Position numbers and translations under genes: made by a program
DNA from: an uncultured Acidobacteriota bacterium
GTDB taxonomy: Bacteria; Acidobacteriota; Vicinamibacteria; Vicinamibacterales; UBA2999
Assembly: GCA_963713655.1 (NCBI GenBank)
Contig: CAVQMT010000046.1
Location: 1,946 to 65,945, forward strand
DNA: 64,000 bases
Direction: 5' to 3'
In this document: piece after piece, positions 4,743 to 63,350 of the stretch
Position numbering within the stretch: position 1 is the first letter of the stretch
Layout: every line of letters begins with the position of its first letter
The notes under the pieces: generated by a model
Databases searched by the model: none
Seen by the model: only the letters and a program-made list of their open reading frames with translations
Told to the model about the DNA's origin: nothing

Positions 4743-4763
4743 TAGACCGTAGACCGTAGACCG
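4743..4763. repeat. heptamer tandem repeat, 3 x TAGACCG
   Basis: Three perfect contiguous copies (4743-49, 4750-56, 4757-63), preceded by gcaggactg. They lie between the MFS stop (4767) and the KAS start. Confidence 0.95.
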
Positions 4764-4766
4764 AGC

Positions 4767-6090
4767 CTACTTGTGATCCAACGACTCCTGGTCCTTCAAC
4801 AGCCACACGCAGATCAGGCTGACGAGCGCGGTCATGGACACGTAGGCAGCCACGGCCATCGAGGTCTGGAATGTCTGGTACAGATAGAGCGCGATGATGG
4901 GCGCCGGGCCGCCGGCGGTGAGCGAGGCCAGCTGGTAGCCCAGGCTGGCGCCGCTGTAGCGCAGCGTGCCCGGGAAGCGCTCGGCGATGAAGGCCGCCTG
5001 CGGCCCGTACTGCAGGTCCTGGCTCGGCAACCCGAGCGCGATGGCAATGAAGACCAGCCAGGTGTTCCGCGTGTCCAGCATGCCGAAGTAGATGAACGGA
5101 AACACCAGCATCAGGATGCAGCCGATGGCCGTGATGCGGCGCCGCCCGATGACGTCCGACAGGTGGCCGAAGTAGGGGATCGCGCAGGTCGAGATCACGG
5201 CCTGCACCATCACGAAGCCCAGCACCAGGCTCCGGCTCATGCCCAGCGTCTGCGTGGCATAGGTCAAGACATAGGTGGTGAAGATATAGAAGGGCGTCTG
5301 CTGGCCGCTGCGCAGGAGCGCGGTGAGAATCAGCTCGCGCCAGTGGGCCTTCACGACCTGCACCACCGGCGCCTTCTCGACCCGGCCCTGCTCCCGCAGC
5401 TTGGCGAACACCGGCGTCTCGAGCACGCCGGTGCGGATGTACAGGCCCACGAACACCAGCGCGGCGCTGAGCATGAACGGCACGCGCCAGCCCCAGCTCA
5501 GAAACGCCTCCTCGCTGGTCGCGAACGACATCACCGACAACGCGCCGTTGGCCAGCACCATGCCGGCCGGTGCACCGAGCTGGGCAAAGCTGGTGGTGAA
5601 GCCGCGCCGCTTCGGGTCGGTCCACTCCCCGGCCATCAGCACCGCACCGCCCCACTCGCCGCCGACGCCGATGCCCTGGATGATGCGGAAGAACGTCAGC
5701 AGCACCGCGCCCCAGATGCCGATGCTGTCGTAGTTGGGGACCAGCCCGATGCCCATCGTCGCACCGCCCATCAGGACCAGCGTGGCAATCAGCGCGGCCT
5801 TGCGGCCGATGCGGTCGCCGTAGTGGCCGAAGAGCGCCGCGCCGAACGGCCGTGCGACGAAGCCGACGAAGTAGGTGGAGAACGCCAGCAGCGTGCCGGT
5901 GTAGGGATCGTTGCCGGGGAAGAACTGGCGTGGGAACACCAGCGCGGCAGCGACGCCGTAGAGGAAGAAGTCGTACCACTCGATGGTGGTGCCGGCGGCG
6001 GACGCGATGATCGGCCCGGCGCATCATGCGCCGGTGCGCCGCGTCGTCCAGAGCGGCACCCGGGGTGGTCAGAGTCTCGGCTGTTGCCAC
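4767..6090 (-). CDS. MFS transporter (metabolite:H+ symporter family-like), frameshifted near 5' end
   Basis: Polytopic hydrophobic protein with ...GTTIEWYDFFLYGVAAALVFPRQFF... and GRKAALIATLVLMG. The GTG-6090 N-terminus (MATAETLTTPGAALDDAAHRRMMRRAG) is in a different frame from track ORF 4767..5939. The shift is at about 6005-6015. Confidence 0.8.
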
Positions 6091-6198
6091 GACGTCTCCT
6101 CGCCGCCCGCACCGCGGGCGAGCGCAGGCATTCTACAGTGCCGCGGCGGAGGTATAGTCGCAGGTCACAGCAGAGAATCGGGTAATCTCACCACCTTG

Positions 6199-6975
6199 AT
6201 GATCCGAACCCTGTCGTGGCTCGCCGTTCTGGGCGCGTGCGTGGGTGCCGTCCGGCTCGACGCGCAGGCGCTCACCCAGGACCACACCTACACGCGCGCC
6301 GACGTGGAGGCGGGCCAGCGGCTCTACGGTCCGCAGTGCCAGGTCTGTCACGGCGCCACCGGCGACGGGGTGCCGGGCATCGATTTGCGACTTGGCCGCT
6401 TCCGGCGCTCGTCGTCCGACGACGACCTCGCCAGGATCATCACCTCGGGCATCGCGGGCGCCGGCATGCCGGGCTTCAAGCTGCAGCCGGCCGAGCTCAC
6501 GGGCATCATCGCCTTCATCCGGGCGGGCTTCGACGCGGCGTCGGCGTCGGTGCGCCTCGGCAACGCCGAGCGGGGTAAAGCGCTGTTCGAGGGCAAGGCG
6601 GTCTGCGCGCAGTGCCACCGGGTGAAGGGTCAGGGTCCGCGCGTCGCGCCCGACCTGAGCGAGATCGGCGCGATTCGCACGCTGGCGTCGCTGCAGCGCA
6701 CGCTGCTCAACCCGACCGAGTCCCTGCTGCCGATCAACCGGCCCGTCCGCATCGTGACCAAGGATGGCCGCACCATCCGCGGCCGGCGCCTGAACGAAGA
6801 CACCTACACCGTGCAGCTGATCGACACCCAGGAGCGCCTGCACTCGCTGGTCAAGGCGGACCTGAAGGAGTTCGTGGTCGAAACCACGGCGACGATGCCG
6901 TCCTATCAAGGCCGGCTGACCGCGGACGAGCTGGCCGACGTGATCGCCTACCTGACCACGCTGAAGGGGTTGTGA
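6199..6975 (+). CDS. dihaem c-type cytochrome
   Basis: ATG at 6199 inside track ORF 5983..6975. Signal peptide MIRTLSWLAVLGACVGA. Two CXXCH motifs (CQVCH, CAQCH). Confidence 0.8.
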   Translation: MIRTLSWLAVLGACVGAVRLDAQALTQDHTYTRADVEAGQRLYGPQCQVCHGATGDGVPGIDLRLGRFRRSSSDDDLARIITSGIAGAGMPGFKLQPAELTGIIAFIRAGFDAASASVRLGNAERGKALFEGKAVCAQCHRVKGQGPRVAPDLSEIGAIRTLASLQRTLLNPTESLLPINRPVRIVTKDGRTIRGRRLNEDTYTVQLIDTQERLHSLVKADLKEFVVETTATMPSYQGRLTADELADVIAYLTTLKGL

Positions 6976-6977
6976 CC

Positions 6978-8657: not shown

Positions 8658-8693
8658 GCTGGCGACACTCGAGCTAGGAACGGCCCAACTAAT

Positions 8694-8760
8694 ACCAACC
8701 TCCACCGATAGTCGGCACCAACCTTCACCGATAGTCCCCCACCAACCTCCACCGACCGTC
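8694..8760. repeat. three tandem ~23-24 bp direct repeats
   Basis: accaacctccaccgatagtc (8694-8713), accaaccttcaccgatagtc (8717-8736) and accaacctccaccgaccgtc (8741-8760). They lie between the PQQ dehydrogenase stop and the ytxH-like start. Confidence 0.9.
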
Positions 8761-9183: not shown

Positions 9184-9186
9184 TCC

Positions 9187-18004: not shown

Positions 18005-18013
18005 GGGCTGCCA

Positions 18014-18041
18014 GTCTTCGGTCTTCGGTCTTCAGTCTTCA
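18014..18041. repeat. heptamer tandem repeat, 4 x GTCTTC(G/A)
   Basis: gtcttcg gtcttcg gtcttca gtcttca. The array starts 10 nt after the stop at 18002-18004 and lies just upstream of the riboswitch. Confidence 0.95.
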
Positions 18042-18045
18042 GTCG

Positions 18046-18243
18046 AGATGGTGTGTTACCCTCGTGGTCGCCTTGGGTGCCCACGAGGGCATAACGGGGA
18101 AGTCCGGTGCAAGTCCGGCGCGGTCCCGCCACTGTGAGTGAAGGAGCGCCGCTTCGAACAGCCACTCGGCCTGTCGGCCGGGGAAGGTGAAGCGGCCCGC
18201 GAGCGAAGTGCTCGCGGCCTTCCGAGCCAGGAGACCTACCCAG
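18046..18243 (+). promoter_or_regulatory. cobalamin (B12) riboswitch
   Basis: The hairpin is ccctcgtgg...ccacgaggg. The core is GGGGAAGTCCGGTGCAAGTCCGGCGCGGTCCCGCCACTGTGA, with the B12 box GCCACTG at 18128-18134. Downstream elements are GCCACTCGG...CCGGGGAAGG and a 3' GCCAGGAGACCTACC. It sits upstream of a TonB-dependent receptor. Confidence 0.85.
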
Positions 18244-18372
18244 GGATTCCTGCGGTCGACTTTCTGCGACGACAGAAAGCATGCCTTGGAGACTGCGCTG
18301 CCAGCCGTCTCCCATCGCACCTCTCTTACGTCGCCGCCGTCGGTCTGCCGTGCGCTCGCGGAGGCAACGTCC

Positions 18373-20826
18373 ATGATTCGATCGGTTCCAATTCGTGCAG
18401 CAGTCCCGTCGTTGTTCACCCACTGGCGCCGCGCCCTGAGCGTGGCCTGCCTGCTGGCCGTCACGGCTGTGGCCGCGGATGCGCAGGAGACGGCAACGAT
18501 CACCGGCACGGCGCTGGACCAGCTCGGCGCCCGTTTGTCGGGGGCCACGGTCACCCTCTCGGGTGGCCCGACCTCACGTCAAACCACGACGGGCAGCGAC
18601 GGCACCTATACATTCGCCAACGTGGCGGCGGGGCGGTATCAAGTGGTGGCCACCGCCACCGGCTTCGCGCCGGCGACATCCGCAGCGGTCTACGTCGGCG
18701 CCGGCGCCCGCGTGAACGTCGGCGTCACGCTGCAGGTGGGTCCGCTGCAGCAGGCCGTGGTGGTCACGGCAGCCGCGGGCGAGCTGCTGCAATCGCAGAC
18801 CGGCGCGCCGGTGACGGTGATCGACTCGACCATCCTCGCGGCGCAGAACAAGCCCGAGCTCCAGGAGGCGCTGCGGCTGGTGCCCGGCGCGCAAGTTCAG
18901 CAGACCGGAGCGCGCGGCGGCCAGTCGTCGCTGTTCGTGCGCGGTGGAGCCGCCGACTTCACCAAGGTACTTGTGGACGGCGTTTCAGTGAACGACATCG
19001 GCGGCGGATTCGACTTCTCGCAGATCCAGACCACTGGCGTGGAGCGCATCGAGGTGATGCGCCAGGCCAATAGCGTCGTCTACGGCAGCGACGCGCTGAC
19101 CGGCGTGGTCAACATCGAGACGCGCCGCGGCCGGACCCGCATCCCCGACGTCGGCCTACACGGTGGACGGCGGCAACCTGGGCACGTTCCGGACCAACGC
19201 GTCGATCGGCGGCGCGGTGAAGCGCGTGGACTACTTCTCCGAGTACTCCTACTTCACCACCGATAACGAGGTGCCGAACAACGGCTACCGCAACAACACC
19301 TACGCGGGCCGGCTCGGCGTCATGCTCGGTAACAACACCGACCTCAGCGCCACGCTCCGCGCCATCGACGGCAAGTTCGGCAACCCCAACGGCTTCGCGC
19401 TCTTCGGCATCGCCGACGACTCCACCTCCGACGCCGAGCTCCTCTACGGCGGCATCAGGGCCCAGTCGCAGTGGACCGATCGGCTGCAGACCACCATCCG
19501 CTACGGCTCGATGGGCCAGACCAGCTTCTTCAACAACCCGACACCGACCGGGCAGCCGTTCGACCCGTTCGGTTTCGGCGCCAACTACCTGGGACAGACG
19601 GTTACGCTGCGCGGCGCCAACGGCACCTCGGTGACCGGTCAGGGGATTCTGGACTACGGCGGCGTCTACCCGCAGCCGTTCGAGAGCCGCACCACCCGGC
19701 GGACGCTGTTCGGCCAGGCTACCTACCGCATCGCCGGCGACCTGCACCTCTCGGGCGGCGGCCGGTTCGAAAAGGAGGCCGGCTACAGCGACCCCGACGG
19801 CGACCCCGACCAGACGCGCAACAACGGCGGCGTGTTCGTCGAGGGCCGCGGCAGTATCGGCGGCCGCACGCACATCAGCGCCGGCATCGGCGTCGAGCAC
19901 AACGCCGCGTTCGACACCGCCACCACGCCGCGGCTGTCAATCGCCTCCTATCTCCGGAACCCGGCGCGCGGGGCGGTCGGCGACACCAAGCTGGTGCTCA
20001 ACTTCGGCAAGGGCATCAAGGCGATGAGCGTGTTCCAGCAGCAAAGCTCGCTCTTCGGGCTGCTCGAATCCGTGCCCGGTGCTCCGCCGGTGGATCCGCT
20101 GGGGCCGGAACGCAGCACCAGCTTCGACGTCGGCGTGGAACAGGGCTTCGCCGACGGCCGGGCGCGCGTGCGAGCGTCCTACTTCTGGAACTCGTTCGAG
20201 GATCTGATCGAGTACGTGAACAAGTCGGCGCTGCCGCTGGTCGGCGTCCCGCCCGCGGTCGCGCAGGCCACCGCCTTCGGCGCCTACGTGAACTCGTCGT
20301 CGTACGACAGCCAGGGCCTCGAAGACTTCGGCCGAGGCCGCCCTGGGCGCCGTGCGGCTGATGGCGTCTTATACCGTTCGTCGACGCCGAGGTCACCGAG
20401 TCCTTCAGCGGCGGCGTGCTGGCGCCGGCCTTCAACCCCGCCTTTCCCGGCGTGCCGATCGGACAGTTCTCGCCGCTGGTGGGCGAGCGCCCGTTCCGCC
20501 GGCCGACGCACTCCGGGTCGTTCATGGTCAGCTACCTGGCAGGACCGTTCGACGTGGCGTTGTCGGCGTACCTGTCGGGCCGGCGCGACGGCAGCACATT
20601 CCTGAGCGACGGCTTCTTCGGCTACTCGATGCTGCTGCCGAACCAGGATCTCGAGGCGGGGTACCAGAAGGTGGATCTCGCGGCGGGTTATCGCGTTCTC
20701 CGCAGTCTGAAAGTGTTCACCAGCATCGAGAACCTGTTCGACAAGGACTACCAGGCGTCCTACGGGTTCCCTGCCCTGCCGATCACCGCGCGCTTCGGAG
20801 TGACCGTGAACTTCGGCGGACGCTAG
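18373..20826 (+). CDS. TonB-dependent receptor with CarboxypepD_reg-like N-domain (BtuB-like by context), three frame breaks
   Basis: The signal peptide is followed by ATITGTALD...GSDGTYTFANVAAGRYQVV. The plug reads LRLVPGAQVQQTGARGGQSSLFVRGG...VLVDGVSVND. The barrel ends ...ITARFGVTVNFGGR*. Pieces lie in ORFs 18187..19266, 19163..20605, 20352..21137 and 20416..20826. Shifts are at about 19150, 20325 and 20375. Confidence 0.85.
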
Positions 20827-20838: not shown

Positions 20839-20882
20839 CGGAAGCCGCGAAGTCGGAAGCTCGGAAGTCGGGAACCGCAAGC
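20839..20882. repeat. imperfect 7-8 nt tandem repeats (CGNRAAG-type), about 6 units
   Basis: cggaagc cgcgaagt cggaagct cggaagt cgggaac cgcaagc. They lie between convergent stops at 20826 and 20885. Confidence 0.8.
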
Positions 20883-24821: not shown

Positions 24822-24910
24822 GCCTGAGTGGCGGAACTGGCAGACGCAGGAGACTCAAAATCTCCCGCCGGTCACCCGGCGTGTGGGTTCGATTCCCTCC
24901 TCAGGCACCA
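24822..24910 (+). tRNA. tRNA-Leu (anticodon CAA), CCA encoded
   Basis: The acceptor stem is gcctgag/ctcaggc. The D arm is gcgg-aactggcaga-cgc. The anticodon stem is ggaga/tctcc with loop CTCAAAA. The long variable arm is cgccgg-tcac-ccggcg. The T arm is gtggg-ttcgatt-ccctc with one U-U mismatch, followed by ACCA. Confidence 0.9.
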
Positions 24911-24923
24911 CGCTCTCCTGCGT

Positions 24924-24997
24924 CTGGCAGACGCAGGAGACTCCAGTATCTCTTTCGCCGGTCACCCGGCGTGTGGGTTTGAATCCCTGTCTCAGCC
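24924..24997 (+). pseudogene. degenerate partial copy of the tRNA-Leu gene (D loop to T loop)
   Basis: ctggcagacgcaggagactc...cgccggtcacccggcgtgtgggtt(t)ga(a)tccct aligns to 24837-24898. The copy has no acceptor stem and an 8-nt anticodon loop (ctccagta). Confidence 0.6.
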
Positions 24998-25049
24998 AGC
25001 CAGGGCCTCAGTCATGTCCCGACGCGCTTCGCGCATCGGGAACGAGAGC

Positions 25050-25069
25050 GATTCCCTCCTCAGGCACCA
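25050..25069 (+). repeat. perfect 20-nt direct repeat of the tRNA-Leu 3' end
   Basis: gattccctcctcaggcacca at 25050-25069 is identical to 24891-24910. Confidence 0.9.
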
Positions 25070-25180
25070 TCAGCATTCCTTCGGTCTTTGGTCCCGCCAA
25101 GGACCACTGAAGACTCGCGACATTAGACTCACGACCAACGGGTAGGCGGTATACTGTTCTTTTTTCTGCCAGCCCTCCAC

Positions 25181-32610: not shown

Positions 32611-34024
32611 CGCCGCCGCCACCAGTGCGTTCGCCGGCCCGCTCGGCGCGCAGGCGCCGCCGGGCGACCTCACCGCCATGTCGATGGCGGAAGCGGCCGC
32701 TGCGATCCGGCGGCGTGCGGTGTCGCCGGTGGATCTGGTGCAGGCGTGCCTGCGCCGCATCGAGAAGCACAACCAGTCCCTGCACGCCTACATCACCGTG
32801 GTCGCCGACCAGGCGCTGGCCGAGGCGCGCACGATGGAGGCCGAGCAGCGCGCCGGCAAGTGGCGCGGGCCGCTCCACGGCGTGCCGATTGCGCTGAAGG
32901 ACAACATCGACACGGCCGGCGTGCGCAGCACCGGCGCGAGCCAGCTCTTCGACCAGCGCGTGCCGGCCGAGGACGCTGAGGTCGCACGGCGCCTGAAGCG
33001 CGCCGGAACGATTCTGCTCGGCAAGCTGAACCTCCACGAATTCGCCTACGGCGGCTCGTCCACCGTCACCCACTACGGCACGATGCACAACCCGTGGGCG
33101 CTCGACCGCGTGACCGGCGGGTCGTCAGGCGGTCCGGCCGTCGCTGTCGCCGCGAGCCTGTGCTACGCCTCGCTCGGCACCGACACCGCCGGCTCGGTGC
33201 GGATGCCGGCCAGCAACTGCGGCATCGTCGGGCTGAAGCCGACCTACGGCCGCGTGAGCACGCGCGGCGTGATGACGCTGTCGTGGACGCTCGATCACGT
33301 CGGTCCGATGACCAGGACCGTCGAGGACACGGCGATCCTGATGAACGTGATTGCGGGCTACGACGTGCTGGATCCGACCACCGCCGACGTGCCCGTGCCC
33401 GATTATACCCGGGCGCTCCGGCTGCCAACCGCGAAGCTGCGGCTCGGCATCCCGCGCAAGCCGTTCTTCGACAACCTGGATCCCGACGTCGAAGCCGCCG
33501 TCACGGCTGCGCTGGCCGTGCTGCGGCCGATCACGGCGAGCATGGCGGATGTCGAGCTGCCGGCCCGAGGCCGACCCGCCGCCGTCTGGGGGCCCGAGGC
33601 CTACGTCTACCACGCCAAGTGGATCGAGGAGTCGCCCGAAAAGTACCAGCCCGGCACCCGGCGGTCGCTCGAGGCCGGCAAGACCGCGAACGCCGCCGAC
33701 TACGTGCGCGCGGTTCGTGAAGTGGAAGACGCCCGGCGCGCCATCAAGACGCTGTTCGAGACCGTCGACGTGCTGGTGACGCCGACCATGAAGACGCCGG
33801 CGCCGCGGCTCGAGGGCGGACCGCCCGGAGGCGGCGGCAACAACAACGCGATCTTCGACGTCTACGGCCTGCCGACGATCTCGGTGCCGTGCGGCTTCTC
33901 GCGGGACGGGCTGCCCATCGGCCTGCAGCTGAGCGCCGCACACTGGGCGGAGCCGACCGTGCTGGCCCTGGCCCAGGCCTACGAGCGCGCCACCGACTGG
34001 CATCGCCGCCGTCCTCCGCTCTAG
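32579..34024 (+). CDS. amidase-signature family amidase with Tat-type signal
   Basis: MDRRRFLALTSAAATSAFA is the Tat-type signal. The AS motifs are GGSSGGPAVAVAA...GTDTAGSVRMPA. The gene is intact. Confidence 0.85.
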   Translation: MDRRRFLALTSAAATSAFAGPLGAQAPPGDLTAMSMAEAAAAIRRRAVSPVDLVQACLRRIEKHNQSLHAYITVVADQALAEARTMEAEQRAGKWRGPLHGVPIALKDNIDTAGVRSTGASQLFDQRVPAEDAEVARRLKRAGTILLGKLNLHEFAYGGSSTVTHYGTMHNPWALDRVTGGSSGGPAVAVAASLCYASLGTDTAGSVRMPASNCGIVGLKPTYGRVSTRGVMTLSWTLDHVGPMTRTVEDTAILMNVIAGYDVLDPTTADVPVPDYTRALRLPTAKLRLGIPRKPFFDNLDPDVEAAVTAALAVLRPITASMADVELPARGRPAAVWGPEAYVYHAKWIEESPEKYQPGTRRSLEAGKTANAADYVRAVREVEDARRAIKTLFETVDVLVTPTMKTPAPRLEGGPPGGGGNNNAIFDVYGLPTISVPCGFSRDGLPIGLQLSAAHWAEPTVLALAQAYERATDWHRRRPPL

Positions 34025-34031
34025 AGGGGAT

Positions 34032-34073
34032 GGTCTGCGGTCTACGAACGAAGACCGGAGACTGTAGTCGTTG
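34032..34073. repeat. degenerate heptamer-periodic repeats, about 6 units
   Basis: ggtctgc ggtctac gaacgaa gaccgga gactgta gtcgttg. The array starts 8 nt after the amidase stop. Confidence 0.6.
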
Positions 34074-34189
34074 GGCACAGCGTTTTTCAGCACCCTGCCG
34101 AAGAACAGCTCAGCTCGCGCGACGGCCGCGACCTGTGGCAGTGTTCGCCTCGCACTCGGCGCACGTTGAAGCGAGTGGGAGATCACTAG

Positions 34190-37371: not shown

Positions 37372-37392
37372 GGAGCCCGGAGCCTGGAGCGG
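37372..37392. repeat. heptamer tandem repeat, 3 x GGAGC(C/G)N
   Basis: ggagccc ggagcct ggagcgg. They lie between convergent stops at 37365 and 37418. Confidence 0.9.
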
Positions 37393-40424: not shown

Positions 40425-40430
40425 ACGCCG

Positions 40431-40465
40431 GCTCCAGGCTCCGGGCTCCAGGCTCCAAGCAAGAA
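40431..40465. repeat. heptamer tandem repeat, 4-5 x GCTCC(A/G)(G/A)
   Basis: gctccag gctccgg gctccag gctccaa gcaagaa. The array begins 6 nt upstream of the ndh GTG. On the ndh strand the units read CTGGAGC, so each contains GGAG. Confidence 0.95.
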
Positions 40466-45510: not shown

Positions 45511-46816
45511 AGAAGGCTCCGGGCCGGGCTCCGGGCTCCAGGACGGCTAGACGACGCGGAACTTCCTTGTCGATGCGGAACTGCAGGCGCTCGTGGGCGG
45601 CGCGCAGCGCCGCGATGACCTCTGAGGGTTCGCCGGCACGGGCGAAGATGAAGCCAAGGTAGCTGCGGCCCTCGGGCAGCGGCACCAGGAGCGCATCGGT
45701 CTTCGCGGTAATGCGGACGTCGAGCACGCCCGGAACGGCCCGTGCATCTTCGACCCCTCCGACCTCGCGGAACACACCTCGCCGCGGGATGGGAATCATC
45801 ATCACGCCCGCCGCGGGCGCTTCGCGCACGACACTGCCGACGTCTTGCCCCAGCGCATGCCGGAGCAGCACCTCCTCCAGCGAGGCTTCGGCCTCGGATG
45901 CCGTCGTGAACCGCAGAGCACGCGCACAGAGCCCGCCAATCGGCCGCGGCGCCACTTCCAGTACGTAGACCCCCTGTTCGTTGACCCGGCACTCGGCGTG
46001 GATGGGGCCGTGGTCAAGCCCCAGGCCCTGCGCGGCCGTGGCGATCGCCGCGGTGATGGCCGCCTGTACCTCCAGCGGCTCACTGGAGGGCGTGACGTAG
46101 ATGGTTTCCTCGAAGAACGGGCCGTCCAGCGGATCCGGCTTGTCGAATATGGCGAACGTCTGCAGCCGGCCGTCCACCAGAACGCCCTCGACGGCTTTCT
46201 CGCGACCAGGGATGAACGACTCGATCAGGATGTAGCCGTGCGCCGGATCGCGCTCCTCGCCGACGTCCGGCGCGAGCAGCAGGCGGCGGACGCGCTCCAC
46301 GGCCGCAGCGCAGCCGGCCGCATCGTCCACGCGGATCACGCCGCGGCTGCCCGAGAGCGCGAGCGGCTTCACCACCGCGGGATAGGCGACGTGTGCCGAG
46401 GCCGGGGCGGGGCTGGCATCCGGAAGCACCAGGCTGAAGCGCGGCACCGGGAGGCCCACCGCCTGCAGGGCGCGACGCGTCAGCAGCTTGTTGCGGCTGC
46501 GCTCCGCCGCCTCGGCGCTGTTGCCCGGCAGGCCCAACGCCGAGGCGACGGCGGCGGCGAAGACGGCCGGCCGGTCGCCGACGGCCACGACACCCTGGAC
46601 GGGGCGATCCGCCAGCGCGGATTGCACCGCCCGCACCGACGCCTCTCGGTCGTGGAAGCGGACGGCGATCGCGCCGTCGCGCCACGGGTCATCGAGGTGA
46701 TCGCAGCGATCGCTCGCCACCACGAGCTCGATGCCCAGCTTGACGGCGGCCTCGCCGAACGAGCGAATCTGGTATCCGGTGGTCGTCGCCACCAACAGGA
46801 TGCGGGTCACGGCCAC
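45428..46816 (-). CDS. ATP-grasp domain protein (carboxylate-amine ligase-like); 3' end uncertain
   Basis: The GTG start is 13 nt after the rSAM stop. It has the pre-ATP-grasp motif RILLVATTTGYQIRSF, plus YPAVVKPLALSGSRGVIRV, ILIESFIPGRE and GPIHAECRV..VYVLEVAPRPIGG. The last roughly 40 codons read through the heptamer repeats and overlap yggX. The true stop is therefore probably earlier, hidden by an indel. Confidence 0.75.
   Translation of the reverse strand: MAVTRILLVATTTGYQIRSFGEAAVKLGIELVVASDRCDHLDDPWRDGAIAVRFHDREASVRAVQSALADRPVQGVVAVGDRPAVFAAAVASALGLPGNSAEAAERSRNKLLTRRALQAVGLPVPRFSLVLPDASPAPASAHVAYPAVVKPLALSGSRGVIRVDDAAGCAAAVERVRRLLLAPDVGEERDPAHGYILIESFIPGREKAVEGVLVDGRLQTFAIFDKPDPLDGPFFEETIYVTPSSEPLEVQAAITAAIATAAQGLGLDHGPIHAECRVNEQGVYVLEVAPRPIGGLCARALRFTTASEAEASLEEVLLRHALGQDVGSVVREAPAAGVMMIPIPRRGVFREVGGVEDARAVPGVLDVRITAKTDALLVPLPEGRSYLGFIFARAGEPSEVIAALRAAHERLQFRIDKEVPRRLAVLEPGARPGAFSTSPAAGRSLAAAQRPRRRRSLPSEWR
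45515..45547. repeat. heptamer-type repeats GGCTCC(G/A), about 4-5 units
   Basis: ggctccg ggccg ggctccg ggctcca ggacggc. They directly follow the yggX stop. Confidence 0.85.
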
Positions 46817-49633: not shown

Positions 49634-50543
49634 GTGGCGCTCGAGAGCTACCGTAAGAAGCGAGACTTCACCAAGTCGCCCGAGCCGGCCGGCGACAAGG
49701 CTGCGCAAATCACCGGCCGGCCGCAAGCCGCGCTTCTTCTGCGTCCAGAAGCACCTGGCCAGCCACCTGCACTACGACTTGCGGCTCGAGCACAACGGCG
49801 TGCTGCTGTCGTGGGCCGTGCCGAAGGGCCCGGCCATCGACCCCACCATCAAGCGCCTGGCGATGCACGTCGAGGATCATCCGGTGGAGTACGGCGAGTT
49901 CGAGGGCGTGATTCCGTCGGGCTACGGCGCCGGCATCGTCATGCTGTGGGACCGCGGCACGTGGACGCCGGAGGTGGACGACGTGGACGCGGCGCTGGCC
50001 AAGGGCGATCTGAAGATGACCCTCGACGGCTACAAGCTCAAAGGGTCCTGGGTCCTGGTGCGCACCAGGGGCTGGGGCAGCAAGGAGGGCAAGGCGGACG
50101 ACGGCCGCTCATGGCTGCTGATCAAGCACAAGGACGAATGGGCGGGCCCGATCGACATCGCCGAGTTCGCGCCGTTGAGCGTCAAGAGCGGCGGCGACTT
50201 CGCCGAGATTCTGTCGGCCGACGACCCGGACATCTGGCGCTCCAACCGGCCCGCGGAGGGCGGCGAGACGGGGAAGATGTTCGATTCGATCATCAAGCGC
50301 GCGCTGGCGATGAAGGCCGGAAGCGCCGACGAAGGCCCGGGCCACGGGCTACGGGCCAAGGCCCGACCAAAGAGCAAAGGCCAAAGCCGAGAGCCGGAAG
50401 CCGGAAGCCGCGAGCCAGAAGCCGGGAGCCGGAAGCCGGAAGCCGAGAGCCTAGAGTCCAAGCGCCGGCTGCGCGATCTTTCTCGAGCAGCCGTTGCGCT
50501 CAACACCGACCAGACCGCGAACGACAGCCGGCGACGGTCGTGA
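49634..50543 (+). CDS. LigD 3'-phosphoesterase-domain protein; one frame break, 3' end uncertain
   Basis: GTG 49634 gives ALESYRKKRDFTKSPEP. After a shift at about 49720 it continues KPRFFCVQKHLASHLHYDLRLEHNGVLLSWAVPKGP...HVEDHPVEYGEFEGVIP. The ORF then reads through the 50365-50462 heptamer array. Confidence 0.7.
50365..50462. repeat. largest heptamer array, about 14 units of G(C/A)C(C/A)(G/A)(G/A/C)A type
   Basis: gaccaaa gagcaaa ggccaaa gccgaga gccggaa gccggaa gccgcga gccagaa gccggga gccggaa gccggaa gccgaga gcctaga gtccaag. Both convergent ORFs are open through the array. Confidence 0.95.
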
Positions 50544-51449: not shown

Positions 51450-51462
51450 GCGTCGCTATTGT

Positions 51463-51497
51463 ACGGTCTACGGTCTACGGTCTCCGGGTCTGCGGTC
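51463..51497. repeat. heptamer tandem repeat, 3 x ACGGTCT plus 2 degenerate units
   Basis: acggtct acggtct acggtct ccgggtc tgcggtc. The unit is the reverse complement of the TAGACCG array at 4743-4763, in phase-shifted register. Confidence 0.95.
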
Positions 51498-51560
51498 CCG
51501 CAGTGCCGACCTGTAGACCAGCCCAAGTCGGGATTGCAGTGCCGCATTGGCAGGACTCGT

Positions 51561-51588
51561 GGACCGGAGACCGAAGACCGAAGACCTA
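51561..51588. repeat. heptamer tandem repeat, about 4 x (A/G)GACC(G/T)(A/G)
   Basis: ggaccgg agaccga agaccga agaccta, preceded by caggactcgt. The array ends 10 nt before ATG 51599. Confidence 0.9.
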
Positions 51589-51598
51589 CAATGCATCT

Positions 51599-52306: not shown

Positions 52307-53120
52307 AGCACGCCCTGGCGAGCTTCCAGCACGCCCTGGCGGCCGTGCTGGCGGTCGTGGCCCTGGCGTTGCCGGCGCAGGCCCAGCCGCCGCCGCCCGC
52401 CCTGACCGGGCCGGTCAACGATTTCGCCAACGTGATCGACGGCGCCAGCAAGCGGACGCTCGAAGAGATGATCCTGAGCCTCGAGCGCGCCAGCGGCGAC
52501 GCCATCGTGGTGGCGACGGTGGACACCTACAAGCCGGACTACGCCGACCTGAAGGAATACGCCGTCAAGATGTTCGAGAACCGGGGCCGCGGCATCGGCC
52601 AGAAGGGCAAGGACAACGGCGCTGCTGGTGGTCGTGGCCGTCCGCGACCGGGAAGTGCGGATCGAGGTGGGCTACGAGCTGGAGCAGTTCGTCACCGACG
52701 GCTTCGCCGGCCAGGTCAGCCGCCTCGACATGGTCCCCGCCTTCCGGCAGGGCCAGTACGGCGAGGGCCTCGTGGCGGGCGTGTCGCGACTCGTGGATCG
52801 GATCGCGGAAGGCCGCGGGGTCCAGCTCTCCGATCGGCCGGACGCCGCGAATCAACGTGCGCAATACCGGGGGCGGCGGCGGCCTGCTGTTGGCGCTGTT
52901 CGTGCTTTTCATCGTGCTGAACGCCCTGGGCCGGCGCGGCCGGCGTCGATCGCGCTACTGGGGCGGCGCGCCATGGAGCACCTGGCACAGCGGCGTGGGC
53001 CCGTTCGGCGGCCCACGCGGGGGCGGGTTCGGAGGGTTCGGCGGTGGCGGATTCGGCGGGGGTTTTGGCGGCTTCGGCGGCGGCCGCAGCGGCGGTGGCG
53101 GCGGCGGAGCCAGCTGGTAG
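52294..53120 (+). CDS. TPM-domain (YgcG-like) protein with Gly-rich tail, two frame breaks
   Basis: The signal is followed by LTGPVNDFANVIDGASKRTLEEMILSLERASGDAIVVATV. After a shift at about 52620 it continues LLVVVAVRDREVRIEVGYELE. After a shift at about 52840 comes a TM segment LLLALFVLFIVL and the tail GGFGGFGGGGFGGGFGG...ASW*. Confidence 0.7.
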
Positions 53121-53753: not shown

Positions 53754-53764
53754 ACGCCCTCACT

Positions 53765-53794
53765 GGAGCCCGGACGACCTGGAGCCTGGAGCCG
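53765..53794. repeat. heptamer-type repeats GGAGCCN, about 4 units
   Basis: ggagccc ggacgac (ct) ggagcct ggagccg. They lie between the lemA stop and the dinB-like start. Confidence 0.85.
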
Positions 53795-59542: not shown

Positions 59543-59551
59543 CGCGCCGTG

Positions 59552-59960
59552 GTGGACGATCCCCTGCTCGTGCGCCGCATCGAGCGTCCCGGCGATCTGC
59601 TTCGCGATCGGCAGCGCCTCGTCGGGCGGAAGCTCTGTGCCCTTGGCCCTCAGCTCTTCGATCTCTTGCGCCCAAATCGTCGCTCTCGACGAGTTCCATG
59701 ACGAGCGCGGAGACCCCGCCGCACTGTTCGAGCCCGTAGATGGCCGCGATGTTGGGTGGCTGAGCGACGCGAGCGTCTTGGCGTCACGCTGGAAGCGCGC
59801 GAGCCGCTCGGCGTCGTGCGCGAACGGCCTCGGGCAGGATCTTCGAGCGCGACATCGCGATCGAGCTTGGTGTCGCGCCCAATAGACCTGCCCACGCCTT
59901 CGCCGATCTGCTCGGTGACTCCGTAAAGGGACCGAGGCGGGCGCCGTGCGCAAGCGTCAT
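59552..59960 (-). pseudogene. truncated, frameshifted N-terminal fragment of a Ser/Thr kinase gene
   Basis: ATG 59960. Across frames it reads ...VTEQIGEG..VYWARDTKLDRDVAL.ILPEAFAHDAERLARFQR.AKTLASLSHP.IAAIYGLEQ...ALVMELVE...PIAKQIAGTLDAAHEQGIVHH. The sequence then ends abruptly, with no HRDLKP continuation. Confidence 0.6.
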
Positions 59961-60156
59961 CGACTACCCGCCGTCACGATGTCGACCTTTCTGCCGCGGG
60001 CCCACCGGGTAGGTCGTGAAGAGGTCGAATGTCAGGATGCGCGGCTCGCGATGGATTTCAGCGCAATCACCTCGGCGGGGCAGTTCAGTTGAGGAAGGAG
60101 GGCGGCGCTCATCTGTTCCGGTTGCGGTTTGCGACCTTGAATCGCCGGAAGGGGCT

Positions 60157-61625: not shown

Positions 61626-61641
61626 GTCAACCTCCCAGGGT

Positions 61642-62493
61642 TCAGTTGCGGGATGAAGGCGGCAGGGTCGATGGATCGGCCAGGGCTGCTCTCGCCTTCC
61701 GCAGGTGTTGAACGGCCACGCCAAGCAGGTTGTCGATCGCCTGCCGGTTCGGTAGACCCTGTGCCACGCCGAGGGCCCACCGGCGGCCCGCAATTCGATC
61801 CGGCCCGATCGAAGGCCGGCTCATCGTGATTGGCCAAGGCACCCGCGGACAGGACCTCCAAGGCATCGCTGCTTCCGCGAGCGCCAGTCGCGCCAGGTCG
61901 TTCATATCGACTGGCGCTGGCCATGGTCCGACCGCGCGCCGCGACCTCGATCGAGGATCGAATGTTCTCCAGCGCGTTCAGCACACGCAGGAACGCGGCA
62001 ATCGCTTGGACCTCGGGAACGGCGGGATCGTCACTGATCGCGATCGGGATCGCGCCCGGCGTCAGGCCCGACTGGAATGCCAGGCTGCCATAGAAGGCCA
62101 CGGATGACTCGAGATCCGATACGGTGTGATTGTGGAAGAAGGGGCCGGTGTCGGCCGACTCTACGACCGGCGGGCTGTTGAACTCCTCGAGCTCGAGATG
62201 CCCGAAGGGGGGTGGGAGGTCAGGCGGTGTTGCCGAATGAGCCGAACACCGTCGGGATCTGCCCGAACCCGCCATCGCGAGGCAGCCCCAGCGACAGCGC
62301 GAGTGGGATGTCGTTCGCATTCGTCCCGCACCGCCGATGTTGAACCCTCGCGGACTGCCGTCTATCCGCGGAAACCCCGGCGTCGCCGGGTTGAATGACA
62401 TTCCCGCGGAGCCACCTCCATTGAAGTGGCAACCGTTGCAGTTCTTGTGGCCTGGCTCCAACAGATCCCCGCTGTCCAGGAAGAGCGTCTTGC
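61642..62493 (-). pseudogene. C-terminal part of a cytochrome-c-peroxidase/MauG-like protein, fused in frame to an unrelated gene fragment; at least 3 frame breaks
   Basis: GKTLFLDSGDLLEPGHKNCNGCHFNGG contains a CXXCH motif. Later segments are ...ESADTGPFFHNHTVSDLESSVAFYGSLAF and ...AIAAFLRVLNALENI.... It ends ...LRKARAALADPSTLPPSSRN* at 61642. No N-terminal haem domain or signal peptide is present. Confidence 0.5.
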
Positions 62494-63291
62494 CGTCGGC
62501 GACCGGCGTCAGCGACGCTTCCATCCCGGCACGAAACCCGGCCGGTACTGCCCTGGCAATCAGGTTCGAGACAGTGGCGCTCGCCGCGTCAATCGTGACG
62601 CCGGGTGCCAGCCGTCCGAGCACGAACAGCACGCCGAAGCCCGGGTCCTCGAGGACATCCACCTTCCACTGCTCGCTGGCGGCTTCGAGCTGCGGCACCA
62701 GCGCCACCCACAGCTCGGCGCCGCGCGGATAGTCGAAGCCGTCGGGCATCACGCCGACAACCGTGTAGACGCCGGCGCGAAAGCGCAGCGCCCGTCCGAC
62801 GATCGCCGGATCGCCGCCGAACCGGCGTTGCCACGCGCCGTGGCTGAGGACGGCCACGCGTGCGCTGCCCTTGCGGTCGTCCGCCGGCTGCAGCGTGCGG
62901 CCGAGGGCCGCGTTCGCGCCCGCCAGGGCAAAAAACGACGCCGACACGGCGGCGGCCGGAATCGTCGCCGGCTGGCCTTCCTGCAGCACGAGGCCCCAGG
63001 TGGTGGAGCCCATCGCCGCCAGCTGCTCGAATCCGCGCGCGTCGCGCTGCCAGTCGCGAAACGTCGCATAGGACACCTCGCCGATCGTCGCCGGCGTGGC
63101 GCGCTCGCGCGGCCAGATCACCACCACGCGGTGTGCATCCCGAATCGGCAGCGGCCGAATCAGAACCTTGTCCACGACCGCGAACACCGCACGCTGGCAC
63201 CGATGGCGACGGCCAGCGTGCACACGGCGGCCACCGCCAGCGTCGGCGAACGGCGCAGCCAGCGCAGGCTCAAGCGAAGATCGCTCAGCAT
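62494..63291 (-). pseudogene. N-terminal fragment (TM1 plus MacB-like periplasmic domain) of an ADOP/FtsX-type ABC permease
   Basis: ATG 63291 gives MLSDLRLSLRWLRRSPTLAVAAVCTLAVAIGAS. After a shift at about 63190 it continues VFAVVDKVLIRPLPIRDAHRVVVIW...AVLSHGAWQRRFGGDPAIVGRAL...VGVMPDGFDYP. It stops at ...MEASLTPVADG, with no FtsX TM bundle. Confidence 0.6.
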
Positions 63292-63316
63292 CTGATGCTC
63301 TACGACCAGCGCCCAA

Positions 63317-63350
63317 CGACTAACGACTACGACTAACGACTAGCTAGTCG
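63317..63350. repeat. heptamer-type repeats CGACTA(A), 4 units, ending in a 14-nt palindrome
   Basis: cgactaa cgacta cgactaa cgactag. The palindrome is cgactagctagtcg (63337-63350). Confidence 0.9.

What the first reader, a model, noticed from the sequence alone, without database searches (positions are those of the whole stretch)
4743..63350. Family of intergenic heptanucleotide tandem repeats with locus-specific units
At least 12 intergenic spots carry 3-14 contiguous 7-nt units. Each locus uses its own unit. The units are TAGACCG (4743), GTCTTCG/A (18014), CGGAAGN (20839), GGTCTRC... (34032), GGAGCCN (37372, 53765), GCTCCRR (40431), GGCTCCR (45515), GCCGGAA-like (50365), ACGGTCT (51463), AGACCGA (51561) and CGACTAA (63317). 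They start within about 5-20 nt of stop codons, between convergent genes, or directly upstream of start codons. Both the 7-nt period and the placement recall the STRR heptamer repeats of heterocystous cyanobacteria. I do not know of a description for this kind of GC-rich genome. Because 7 is not a multiple of 3, copy-number change inside or next to a gene end would change the reading frame.
Basis: seen in the sequence. Interest (0 to 1): 0.65.

Follow-up and report, generated by a model that had tools for sequence, protein, structure and literature searches.

The report
Heptanucleotide repeat arrays in a soil acidobacterium
The 7-base tandem repeats are real and common throughout this soil-bacterial order (Vicinamibacterales), but they look like fast-evolving repeat DNA of the kind already known from cyanobacteria and Xanthomonas, not a new regulatory system.

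Summary
The window has 13-14 period-7 arrays: seven strong ones against 0.1 expected, and none at any other period from 4 to 12.

The window comes from a Vicinamibacterales (Acidobacteriota) genome. In 1.96 Mb from 160 relatives plus the window I found 153 heptamer arrays (78 per Mb). The corresponding counts were 2, 17, 7 and 7 for periods 5, 8, 10 and 11. About 95% of the arrays lie outside coding sequence.

"Each locus uses its own unit" is wrong. The units are rotations or reverse complements of three or four families: NAGACCG, GGAGCCN, GGAAGCC-like and CGACTAA. Identical units are about 30 times commoner within a genome than between genomes. In soil metagenomes the array words are 50-200 times deeper than their flanks.

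37% of arrays have an inverted partner nearby, and such pairs fold into strong hairpins. Arrays are gained, lost and remodelled between near-identical strains. Most orthologous gaps in relatives are short and carry no array. I saw no bias in orientation and no preferred gene context.

Best reading: STRR-like hypervariable heptanucleotide repeats made by slippage and template switching. They survive where reading frames tolerate them and have incidental effects on protein tails, SD/promoter spacing and hairpins. What spreads the same unit to many loci is unexplained.

The parts
4636..4670 (.). Degenerate array of 5 units mixing CGGTCTC and CGGGCTC. On the minus strand these read GAGACCG and GAGCCCG. 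It is the inverted partner of array 4738-4763, with 67 nt between them. It lies about 27 nt upstream of the FabF-like gene start on the minus strand.
   Evidence: The whole 136-nt module 4631-4766 is replaced by 10 nt in the dominant related strains of runs X1, X2, X4 and X5.
4738..4763 (.). (GTAGACC) x3.7, NAGACCG family. It starts 3 nt downstream of the MFS transporter stop codon on the minus strand.
18012..18044 (.). (GTCTTCR) x4.7, the reverse complement of AAGACYG (NAGACCG family). It starts 7 nt after a stop codon and ends 13 nt before the cobalamin riboswitch.
   Evidence: Word depth in soil metagenomes is about 1700-1850 against 6-30 in the flanks, and more than 100 contigs with different flanks carry it.
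20839..20871 (.). (CGGAAGN) about x4.4 with indels. It fills the 58-nt gap between the TonB-dependent receptor stop and the stop of the convergent RDD-domain gene. It is predicted to be unstructured.
   Evidence: (z = +1.2)
34032..34064 (.). (GGTCTRC) x2, a short loop, then (GRAGACY) x2. This is a hairpin built from inverted NAGACCG-family units directly after the amidase stop codon.
   Evidence: (-23.5 kcal/mol, z = -3.6)
37372..37390 (.). (GGAGCCN) x2.7, starting 5 nt after a stop codon in a convergent gap.
40430..40457 (.). (GGCTCCR) x4, which reads (YGGAGCC)4 on the minus strand. The last GGAG is followed by 7 nt and then the GTG start of the NDH-2-like gene at 40424, a Shine-Dalgarno-like position.
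   Evidence: The array is conserved in strains X1 and X5. Its word depth is 340-830 against 10-18 in the flanks.
45515..45539 (.). (GGCTCCG) about x3.9 with an indel. It fills the convergent gap between the YggX-like gene and the ATP-grasp ligase gene.
   Evidence: It is absent from related strains: 45510->45556 is replaced by TTAGACGA in X1, X2 and X5. An orthologous array is present in L001, and most other relatives lack one.
50334..50456 (.). Composite array of about 13 or more units. It runs from GGCCACG-like and CAAAGRS units into (RRAGCCG/GGAAGCC)n. It encodes the 3' tail of the LigD-phosphoesterase-like ORF and ends at a CTAG that supplies the stop codons of both convergent genes.
51462..51497 (.). 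(TACGGTC) x5, which reads NAGACCG on the minus strand. It abuts a TACAAT box (51458-51463, minus strand) that sits 8 nt upstream of the CofD/YvcK-like ATG at 51449.
   Evidence: The copy number is the same in L081.
51562..51586 (.). (GACCGRA) x3.6, the inverted partner of 51462-51497. It abuts TACAAT (51587-51592), which sits 6 nt upstream of the ATG at 51599. Together the pair folds at -83.5 kcal/mol.
   Evidence: z = -8.8
53763..53793 (.). (CTGGAGC) about x4 with an indel, lying between the LemA stop codon and the DinB-like start. Relatives have a short gap holding a single GGAGC Shine-Dalgarno-like copy; in L022 it reads CCTGGAGCC.
63315..63342 (.). (AACGACT) x4.1, the CGACTAA family. Its end, together with the flank CTAGTCG, forms a hairpin. 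It lies between two minus-strand genes.
   Evidence: -25.9 kcal/mol, z = -3.4. L001 has the same unit family.
25082..25118 (.). Weak, degenerate inverted pair of the same family (CGGTCTTTGGTCC ... GGACCACTGAAGAC), downstream of the tRNA-Leu remnants.

Best explanation
**What they are**
- These are heptanucleotide simple-sequence-repeat arrays, an STRR-like class that is a lineage-wide property of Vicinamibacterales genomes.
- Density is about 80 arrays per Mb, so several hundred per genome.

**How I think they arise (inferred)**
- Arrays are born and remodelled in place by replication slippage.
- Inverted pairs arise by template switching between hairpin arms.
- A misaligned primer end seems to need about 7 paired bases to be extended. 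That would explain three things:
  - Arrays are almost absent at periods 4-6.
  - They peak sharply at period 7.
  - They fall off at periods 8-11, where chance seed duplications become rarer.

**Where they persist (shown)**
- Seven is not a multiple of three, so arrays persist only where a reading frame is not harmed.
- Those places are intergenic spacers, dispensable 3' tails of genes and, rarely, inter-domain linkers where the total length keeps the frame.

**What they do (partly shown, partly inferred)**
- They are not conserved regulatory elements, but they have incidental consequences:
  - They lengthen or shift protein C-termini.
  - They multiply or displace Shine-Dalgarno-like GGAG motifs.
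  - They replace the DNA upstream of -10 boxes.
  - As inverted pairs, they create very stable hairpins.

**What is shown and what is not**
- Shown: existence, period specificity, non-coding bias, lineage distribution, family structure, inverted pairing and strain-level turnover.
- Inferred: slippage and template switching as the generating process, and the 7-nt threshold.
- Unexplained: why the same hexamer core plus one free base recurs at many loci of one genome.
For: **Period specificity**
- In the window, 7 arrays of period 7 against 0.1 expected, and none at other periods from 4 to 12.
- In 1.96 Mb from 161 stretches (the window plus 160 relatives), arrays per period were:

| Period | Arrays |
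|---|---|
| 4 | 2 |
| 5 | 2 |
| 6 | 10 |
| 7 | 153 |
| 8 | 17 |
| 10 | 7 |
| 11 | 7 |

- Isolated exact two-copy duplications in non-coding DNA already show the bias:

| Period | Observed | Expected | Ratio |
|---|---|---|---|
| 4 | 1159 | 1237 | about 1.0x |
| 5 | 385 | 392 | about 1.0x |
| 7 | 114 | 24.9 | 4.6x |
| 8 | 19 | 9 | 2.1x |

**Non-coding bias**
- 101 of 106 arrays are non-coding, where only 19% of the sequence is classed non-coding.
- Only 2-4 of 144 arrays lie inside a continuous coding frame.

**No functional placement**
- Contexts in 81 stretches were 53 co-directional, 21 convergent and 20 divergent. The non-coding baseline by length was 66%, 14% and 20%.
- The sense strand is 56% purine, so there is no clear orientation bias.
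- Inverted pairs are not enriched in convergent (terminator) gaps: 5 of 55 against 22 of 84 for single arrays.

**Turnover**
- Most orthologous gaps in relatives are 10-50 nt and hold no array.
- The 45515 array and the whole 4631-4766 module are absent from near-identical strains.
- The 50343-50420 array is rebuilt between the window and L081, although their flanks are 96-98% identical.
- Within arrays, unit variants form runs or alternate, as expected from unit-wise duplication.
- Copy number falls off roughly geometrically from 3 units.

**In-place origin, from individual cases**
- Array-less relatives carry a single GGAGC Shine-Dalgarno-like copy where the window has (CTGGAGC)n.
- In a radical-SAM gene linker, arrays (AAGCCTG)n in L006 and (GGCTCAA)n in L002 match the two arms of a palindrome, GGCGAGCCTGA(C/A)AAGGCTCGCC, that sits at the same site in L035 and L020.

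**Lineage specificity**
- 200 kb of a Granulicella (Terriglobia) plasmid has no period-7 array.

**Literature**
- The slippage idea for heptamers is the published proposal for this class, as cited in PMC4692102.
Against: - Random slippage does not explain the genome-specific unit families.
  - Identical units occur in 10.7% of within-genome pairs against 0.35% of between-genome pairs, and in 8.3% of pairs more than 1 kb apart.
  - Exact two-unit matches occur at 4-6 separate loci in 64 kb.
  - Array words are 50-200 times deeper than their flanks in metagenomes, on more than 100 different contigs.
- Across loci, variation sits mainly at one position of the unit (NAGACCG, GGAGCCN). This hints at a sequence-specific constraint.
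- The whole 136-nt module (array, centre, inverted array) is present or absent as a block. A mobile element would behave the same way.
- The observed ratio of period 8 to period 7 (about 0.11) is lower than a simple seed-rarity model predicts (about 0.3).
- My test for single-copy precursors in array-less orthologues was inconclusive: 11.8% against 9.8% for the control.
- I could not measure copy-number variation within a population, because only contigs are available, not reads.
Confidence: 0.55

Rival explanations
1. The arrays are cis-acting binding platforms. A multimeric DNA- or RNA-binding protein would read a hexamer core every 7 nt and tune transcription, translation or mRNA stability of the flanking genes. 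Known proteins that work this way:
- Ribbon-helix-helix proteins such as the omega repressor on 7-bp heptads (from my own knowledge).
- MetJ on 8-bp met boxes (from my own knowledge).
- Ring proteins such as HutP on UAG-N4 repeats (from my own knowledge).
- The post-transcriptional regulator proposed for TAACTGA repeats in Beggiatoaceae.
For: - There are genome-specific unit families with a conserved hexamer core and one free position.
- Several arrays abut start codons or -10-like boxes:
  - at 40430, GGAG is followed by 7 nt and then the GTG start;
  - at 51462 and 51562, each array abuts a TACAAT box.
- Single arrays are predicted to be unstructured, with z from +0.2 to +1.2, which would leave them accessible.
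- (TAGACCG)3 fits the UAG-N4 spacing that HutP reads.
Against: - There is no orientation bias and no preferred gene context.
- Arrays are absent from the same gap in most relatives and in near-identical strains, and the neighbouring genes are ordinary housekeeping genes.
- A single genome holds several unrelated unit families.
- Arrays also sit in convergent gaps and inside protein tails and linkers.
Confidence: 0.15
2. The arrays, above all the inverted pairs with a centre, are non-autonomous mobile elements of the REPIN or MITE kind. An enzyme acting in trans would copy them to new intergenic sites. That would account for the genome-specific families and the block-wise presence or absence.
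For: - 37% of arrays have an inverted partner within 250 nt, against 1-3% expected by chance.
- The pairs fold at -23 to -83 kcal/mol, with z from -3.4 to -8.8.
- The whole 136-nt module 4631-4766 is present or absent among co-occurring strains.
- The families are highly multi-copy.
- In one hot spot, some species carry GC-rich palindromes and others carry arrays.
Against: - Loci of the same family share no similarity beyond the arrays themselves, either in the centres or in the flanks.
- There is no clear target-site duplication at the 4630/4767 junction.
- Most arrays (63%) are single.
- Copy number and unit variants differ from locus to locus.
- The arms of the 51462/51562 pair mismatch at the variable position in every unit, so they are not a simple copy of each other.
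- I found no transposase in the window, though I annotated only about 30 ORFs.
Confidence: 0.15
3. The arrays are selected for the nucleic-acid structures they form. Candidates are hairpin terminators or mRNA-stabilising stems, cruciforms, or G-quadruplexes of the kind proposed for GGGAATC and GGGGAYT repeats.
For: - The hairpin at 34032 lies directly after a stop codon.
- Arrays fill convergent gaps where termination is needed.
- Some relatives carry G3-4-tract units identical or close to STRR1 and the Nostoc repeats, such as GGGGATT, GGGATTT and GGGAGTT.
- Ancestral gaps often hold a small GC-rich hairpin.
Against: - Most window units have no G3 tract.
- Single arrays fold worse than shuffled sequence.
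- Inverted pairs are depleted in convergent gaps and enriched in divergent, promoter-containing gaps.
- There is no T-run after the hairpins.
- Copy number shows no preference for 4 units.
Confidence: 0.1
4. The arrays are artefacts of assembly or sequencing.
For: The window assembly does contain many 1-nt insertion errors that break ORFs.
Against: - The same arrays are present in an independent JGI metagenome contig (L081) and in contigs from public short-read runs.
- Arrays occur in 54 of 87 long stretches taken from many unrelated assemblies, including megahit, SPAdes and long-read assemblies.
Confidence: 0.01

Closest known systems
STRR (short tandemly repeated repetitive) heptamers of heterocystous cyanobacteria. 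The three tandem heptanucleotides of Calothrix PCC 7601 are cited in PMC4692102. The unit sequences are from my own knowledge.
   Same: - 7-nt units in short head-to-tail arrays.
- Overwhelmingly intergenic.
- Several unit families per genome, each present at many loci.
- Function unknown.
- Some Vicinamibacterales relatives even carry AATCCCC/GGGGATT, a rotation of STRR1.
   Different: - The phylum is different (Acidobacteriota) and the genome is 69% GC.
- The window's units (NAGACCG, GGAGCCN, GGAAGCC, CGACTAA) are not the STRR units.
- A high share of arrays (37%) form inverted pairs.
- Arrays also occur in gene 3' tails and in one coding linker.
GGGAATC repeats of Xanthomonas and GGGGA(C/T)T repeats of Nostoc (Rehm et al. 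2015, PMC4692102)
   Same: - GC-rich host genome.
- Heptamer-specific over-representation in non-coding DNA.
- Location close to ORF ends.
- Occasional inverted pairs.
- Extensive length and sequence variation between close relatives.
- No functional class of neighbouring genes stands out.
   Different: - Those genomes have one dominant G-tract unit that can form a G-quadruplex, with a preferred length of 4 units and under-representation in divergent gaps.
- Here there are several families, mostly without G3 tracts.
- Copy number here decays steadily from 3 units.
- Divergent gaps here are not depleted.
Intergenic TAACTGA direct repeats of marine Beggiatoaceae (MacGregor 2015, PMC4679880)
   Same: Short heptamer direct repeats of 2-6 copies at more than 100 intergenic sites in a genome.
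   Different: - There, a single unit dominates and most arrays lie a few nt upstream of start codons, which suggested a translational regulator.
- Here there are many units and all gap types are used.
General over-representation of heptanucleotide repeats among long simple-sequence repeats in prokaryotes (the 2007 survey cited as ref. 33 in PMC4692102)
   Same: - An excess specific to period 7 in intergenic DNA.
- The proposed cause is polymerase slippage tied to the length of DNA held at the active site.
   Different: - That survey is a statistical description across genomes.
- In the papers I could search, I found no account of Vicinamibacterales, of genome-specific unit families or of inverted pairing.
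Phase-variable 7-bp promoter repeats of Haemophilus influenzae hmw1A/hmw2A (PMC8262952 and PMC2424069, seen)
   Same: A 7-bp repeat tract upstream of a gene, where copy number could set expression level.
   Different: - Those are single contingency loci at surface-adhesin genes, with demonstrated copy-number switching.
- Here there are hundreds of loci next to housekeeping genes, and switching has not been shown.
Omega repressor heptad operators of plasmid pSM19035, and MetJ met-box arrays (from my own knowledge; not tested here)
   Same: Contiguous 7-bp (omega) or 8-bp (MetJ) units, in direct or inverted orientation, bound cooperatively by one ribbon-helix-helix dimer per unit. This is a working precedent for a protein reading a heptad array.
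   Different: - Those are a few operator sites with one defined unit.
- No binding protein is known here, and the arrays are far too numerous and too variable.

Membership tests
STRR-type heptanucleotide repeats | Head-to-tail arrays of a 7-nt unit, in excess over chance and over neighbouring periods | tested here: met
STRR-type heptanucleotide repeats | Located mainly outside coding sequence | tested here: met
   101 of 106 arrays are non-coding. Only 2-4 of 144 lie inside an open coding frame.
STRR-type heptanucleotide repeats | A small set of unit families per genome, each dispersed over many loci | tested here: met
   Array words are 50-200 times deeper than their flanks.
STRR-type heptanucleotide repeats | The canonical units STRR1-3 (CCCCARU-type and others) in a cyanobacterial host | tested here: not met
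   The window units are NAGACCG, GGAGCCN, GGAAGCC and CGACTAA. The host is Vicinamibacterales. Only some relatives carry AATCCCC.
G-quadruplex-forming GGGNATC/GGGGAYT repeats | A run of at least 3 G in every unit, and a preferred length of 4 units | tested here: not met
   Most window units lack a G3 tract. Copy number decays from 3 with no peak at 4.
TAACTGA-type translational-control repeats | One dominant unit, with most arrays a few nt upstream of a start codon | tested here: not met
   Several families are present, and the gap contexts are mixed.
Phase-variation (contingency) simple-sequence repeats | Copy number varies within a population and switches expression of the adjacent gene, typically a surface or virulence gene | tested here: inconclusive
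   Differences between strains are seen. Only contigs are available, not reads, so variation within one population cannot be measured. The neighbouring genes are housekeeping genes.
REP/REPIN or MITE elements | Inverted arms that form a hairpin, with presence/absence polymorphism of the whole element | tested here: met
   37% of arrays have an inverted partner. The pairs fold strongly. The module 4631-4766 is present or absent as a block.
REP/REPIN or MITE elements | Copies share a conserved non-repetitive sequence, defined ends or a target-site duplication | tested here: not met
   There is no similarity between the centres or flanks of same-family loci. There is no clear duplication at the junction.
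REP/REPIN or MITE elements | A cognate transposase (for example a RAYT) elsewhere in the genome | not testable with these tools
   Only 64 kb of this genome is available. None of the roughly 30 ORFs I annotated is a transposase.

The most novel reading that the evidence does not exclude
The unit families are not by-products of slippage. Instead they would mark a dedicated sequence-specific system. Each genome would encode one or more factors, such as a nickase or transposase or a heptad-reading DNA/RNA-binding protein. Such a factor would recognise a hexamer core at 7-nt spacing and seed or maintain hundreds of arrays, including the hairpin-forming inverted modules. The same principle might then also underlie cyanobacterial STRRs and the Xanthomonas repeats.
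Probability: 0.12. Interest if true: 0.8.

Novelty: new member of a known kind. Interest (0 to 1): 0.42.

Why it matters
- Why heptamers dominate long simple-sequence repeats in some bacteria, and what STRR-type repeats do, has been open since 1990.
- Vicinamibacterales are abundant soil bacteria with hundreds of metagenome-assembled genomes. They add an independent, GC-rich lineage with about 80 arrays per Mb, many unit families and clear gain and loss between strains.
- That makes comparative tests possible. One is to ask which replication, repair or transposase genes track array abundance. Another is to ask how fast arrays are born and die.
- There are practical consequences:
  - The arrays break short-read assemblies and inflate word depth.
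  - They alter predicted protein C-termini.
  - They could serve as strain markers.
- If the finding is only slippage debris, it is ordinary biology in a new host.

Tried and rejected
- **Exact-protein look-ups.** Two window proteins were not on record in the contig collection.
- **Literature.** I found no paper on heptamer repeats in Acidobacteria or Vicinamibacter. The 2007 survey could not be opened under the PMC id I guessed.
- **Metatranscriptomes (X25-X27, X32).**
  - Coverage was 2-6x, as strandless contigs only.
  - One contig spans array 51462-51497 and others join the two inverted arrays, so the arrays may be transcribed.
  - DNA carry-over cannot be excluded, and no transcript ends could be mapped.
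- **Single-copy precursor test.** I looked for single copies of a unit in array-less orthologous gaps. The result was 11.8% against 9.8% for reversed-unit controls, which is inconclusive.
- **REP-like single hairpins.** I searched the window for GGCTCC...GGAGCC and GGTCT...AGACC hairpins as possible seeds. None lie outside the arrays themselves, apart from two GGTCT...AGACC hits inside coding sequence.
- **MITE-like similarity.** I found no dispersed similarity between the centres of inverted modules.
- **Rho-utilisation sites.** Rejected, because the sense strand shows no C-over-G or pyrimidine bias.
- **Telomerase-like healing of breaks.** Rejected, because the G-rich strand polarity of inverted pairs is mixed (inspection).
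- **Terminator role for inverted pairs.** Rejected as a general explanation, because they are depleted in convergent gaps.
- **Shine-Dalgarno origin of the GGAGCC family.** This fits 53763 and 40430 but not the convergent-gap arrays at 37372 and 45515.
- **Calls that failed on their inputs.** These were 13, 22, 26, 54, 59 and 81.

Full report

Tandem Repeats Finder lists period-7 arrays at these coordinates:

- 4636-4670, 4738-4763, 18012-18044, 20839-20871, 37372-37390, 40430-40457 and 45515-45539.
- 50334-50456 (a composite), 51462-51497, 51562-51586, 53763-53793 and 63315-63342.

My own self-match scan gives the same picture. At score >= 12 there are seven arrays of period 7. No other period from 4 to 12 has any, and Markov-2 shuffles give 0.1. 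The 34032 site is two units plus two inverted units, which is a hairpin rather than an array. The hits at 50043 and 60905 are two-copy matches inside coding sequence, at chance level.

Arrays begin 0-13 nt after stop codons. They fill the convergent gaps at 20839, 37372, 45515 and 50385. They lie 5-27 nt upstream of starts at 40430, 51462, 51562, 53763 and 4636.

**2. Whose genome is it, and is this a property of the lineage?**

The window is 68-70% GC. The closest relatives of a CofD/YvcK-like protein at about 50.5-51.4 kb are Vicinamibacterales (Acidobacteriota) MAGs, up to 93% identical. Metagenome contigs reach 100%. That gave 160 related stretches.

In 1.96 Mb I counted arrays at each period:

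| Period | Arrays (score >= 12) |
|---|---|
| 4 | 2 |
| 5 | 2 |
| 6 | 10 |
| 7 | 153 |
| 8 | 17 |
| 10 | 7 |
| 11 | 7 |

- Period 7 comes to 78 arrays per Mb, and 54 of 87 stretches of at least 10 kb have one or more.
- Periods 9, 12 and 15 are also present, but they are split between coding and non-coding DNA.
- 101 of 106 heptamer arrays fall in the 19% of sequence classed non-coding.
- The bias is already visible in isolated exact two-copy duplications: 114 observed against 24.9 expected for period 7, and about 1x for periods 4 and 5.
- 200 kb of a Granulicella (Terriglobia) plasmid has none, so this is not a property of the whole phylum.

**3. The units are not locus-specific.**

Allowing rotation and reverse complement, the window's units fall into a few families:

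| Family | Loci in the window |
|---|---|
| NAGACCG | 4738, 18012, 34032, 51462, 51562, part of 4636 |
| GGAGCCN | 4636, 37372, 40430, 45515, 53763 |
| GGAAGCC-like | 20839, 50385 |
| CGACTAA | 63315 |

- AGACCGNAGACCG occurs with at most 1 mismatch at six separate loci. GGAGCCNGGAGCC occurs exactly at four.
- Across all stretches, pairs of arrays from one genome have the identical unit in 10.7% of cases, against 0.35% for pairs from different genomes. For pairs more than 1 kb apart the figure is 8.3%.
- The closest species, L001, shares the window's families.
- In soil metagenomes, word depth over 40430-40457 is 340-830 against 10-18 in the flanks. Over 18012-44 it is about 1700-1850 against 6-30. 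More than 100 contigs with different flanks carry that array.
- These are therefore dispersed multi-copy families, as STRRs are.
- Between loci, variation is concentrated at one position of the unit.

**4. Architecture.**

- 57 of 153 arrays (37%) have an inverted partner of at least two units within 250 nt, where 1-3% is expected by chance.
- The inverted pairs fold strongly:
  - 51455-51595 at -83.5 kcal/mol, z = -8.8;
  - 34020-34075 at -23.5 kcal/mol, z = -3.6;
  - 63305-63365 at -25.9 kcal/mol, z = -3.4.
- Single arrays fold no better than shuffled sequence, with z from +0.2 to +1.2.
- Copy number peaks at 3-4 units and decays to 13.

**5. No sign of a placement rule.**

- Gap contexts in the first 81 stretches were 53 co-directional, 21 convergent and 20 divergent. 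The length baseline was 66%, 14% and 20%.
- In co-directional gaps the sense strand is 56% purine.
- Inverted pairs are depleted in convergent gaps (5 of 55) and frequent in divergent ones (16 of 55). This argues against a general terminator role.

**6. Turnover.**

- In most relatives the orthologous gaps are 10-50 nt and have no array. Arrays with different units appear sporadically in the same gap.
- Related strains in runs X1, X2 and X5 lack the 45515 array.
- Related strains in X1, X2, X4 and X5 lack the entire 136-nt module 4631-4766. Other contigs in the same runs carry a variant of it.
- L081 is a JGI metagenome contig of the same species. It keeps arrays 51462 and 51562 at the same copy number, but has (AAGGCAA)4-5 where the window has a different left half of the 50343-50420 array.
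- So arrays are real, heritable and labile.

**7. Effects on genes.**

- **Protein tail.**
  - In L081 the LigD-phosphoesterase-like ORF runs into the array (...KAKGKGQKAKGRAKKPGAGSRKPRA*).
  - It stops at a TAG whose CTAG also provides the stop of the convergent CofD-like gene.
  - In the window a 34-nt length difference puts that TAG out of frame.
- **Basic tails in relatives.** More distant relatives have an ordinary Lys/Ala-rich tail at the same place, some built from 9-nt units.
- **Shine-Dalgarno-like motifs.**
  - At 40430 the last GGAG is followed by 7 nt and then the GTG start of the NDH-2-like gene.
  - At 53763 the unit matches the single Shine-Dalgarno-like GGAGC copy of array-less relatives.
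- **Promoter region.** At 51462 and 51562 both arrays abut TACAAT boxes that lie 8 and 6 nt upstream of the two divergent ATGs. A TAnAAT-like box at that distance recurs in five relatives that lack the arrays, which suggests leaderless promoters.
- **Coding linker.** In relatives, the linker of a radical-SAM protein carries in-frame heptamer arrays in many species and GC-rich palindromes in others. Even so, only 2-4 of 144 arrays are inside an open coding frame.

**8. Interpretation.**

The best-supported reading is an STRR-like class of hypervariable heptanucleotide repeats. They would be produced and remodelled by slippage and, for inverted arms, by template switching. Selection would keep them out of reading frames. 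Their regulatory and coding side-effects would be incidental.

The sharp step between periods 6 and 7, followed by a decline at longer periods, fits a minimum realignment length of about 7 bp. That is the published suggestion for this class, and here it remains an inference.

The main unexplained fact is the genome-specific, multi-copy unit families with a conserved hexamer core. A sequence-specific binder, or a REPIN/MITE-like mobilisation, remains possible. Neither gains support from orientation, context, conservation or flank similarity.

**9. Comparison with what is known.**

The closest known cases are:

- cyanobacterial STRRs;
- Xanthomonas GGGAATC and Nostoc GGGGAYT repeats (PMC4692102);
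- Beggiatoaceae TAACTGA repeats (PMC4679880);
- the general over-representation of heptamers reported in 2007.

The defining features of heptamer arrays are met: a 7-nt unit, a non-coding location and a few dispersed families per genome. The canonical STRR units and the cyanobacterial host are not. I found no description for Acidobacteria in the searchable literature. I therefore file this as a new member of a known kind, with moderate interest.

Noticed in passing
window 34078, 41357, 41993, 45084, 45163/4, 47808, 49703, 50474, 50497, 51384, 51486, 51558, 52621: The window has single extra bases at these places relative to an independent JGI metagenome contig (L081) and to DNA and RNA contigs from public short-read runs. 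Several of them break ORFs: LigD-PE at 49703, CofD at 51384, and the CofD 3' end at 50474 and 50497. The TonB-dependent receptor (18187-20826) and a TPM-like gene (52314-52973) are also split over three frames. This looks like indel error in a long-read assembly, not real pseudogenes.
   Followed up: partly
window 24822-25069: tRNA-Leu(CAA) at 24822-24910 is followed by a degenerate copy of its 3' two-thirds (about 24925-24990; the part at 24951-24988 is 89% identical). An exact copy of its last 20 nt, GATTCCCTCCTCAGGCACCA, follows at about 25049-25068. This may be a scar of integration and excision at the tRNA.
   Followed up: no
window 18058-18257 and 18187-20826: A cobalamin riboswitch (95.5 bits) lies directly upstream of a TonB-dependent receptor with CarboxypepD_reg and Plug domains, which is probably a B12 importer. 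The heptamer array 18012-18044 ends 13 nt before the riboswitch, where its promoter would be expected.
   Followed up: partly
window 51458-51463 (-) and 51587-51592 (+); L001, L027, L084, L111, L136 at the same gap: A TACAAT/TAnAAT-like box sits 6-8 nt upstream of the start codons of both divergent genes (the CofD/YvcK-like gene and its neighbour). It recurs in relatives that lack the arrays. This suggests leaderless transcripts.
   Followed up: partly
window 50446-50455; L081: The convergent LigD-phosphoesterase-like and CofD-like genes share a palindromic CTAG that gives the stop codon of each, so they have no gap between them. In relatives the stand-alone LigD-PE protein carries a Lys/Ala-rich basic tail, and in some of them the tail is built from 9-nt repeats (GGTGCGAAR).
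   Followed up: partly
L006 15310-15345 and the orthologous site in about 60 loci (for example L019, L121, L035, L020, L097, L032): The linker between the N-terminal domain and the radical-SAM core (CKHLCRHCP) of one protein is a hot spot. Many species have in-frame heptamer arrays there, of the AACTCCC and RRAGCCN families. Others have GC-rich palindromes, including a 78-nt near-perfect palindrome in L097. All are read through as coding sequence.
   Followed up: partly
window 8694-8755: A 23-24-nt direct repeat, ACCAACCTCCACCGATAGTC..., occurs 2.6 times in the intergenic region upstream of the ORF that starts at about 8831 (preceded by GAGGAGG). It is unrelated to the heptamers and could be a set of regulator-binding sites.
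   Followed up: no
L031 1765-1797 and 1862-1886; L100: Arrays of AATCACA, also present in inverted orientation, match the WATCACW heptad bound by the omega repressor of pSM19035 (from my own knowledge). This is probably coincidence.
   Followed up: no
window 50363-50469 in RNA runs X25-X27, X32: Word depth over the (GGAAGCC)n array is 41-212 in rhizosphere metatranscriptome contigs, against 0-12 in the flanks. Either many transcribed loci carry this array, or matches from other loci are inflating the depth. The data cannot tell these apart.
   Followed up: no
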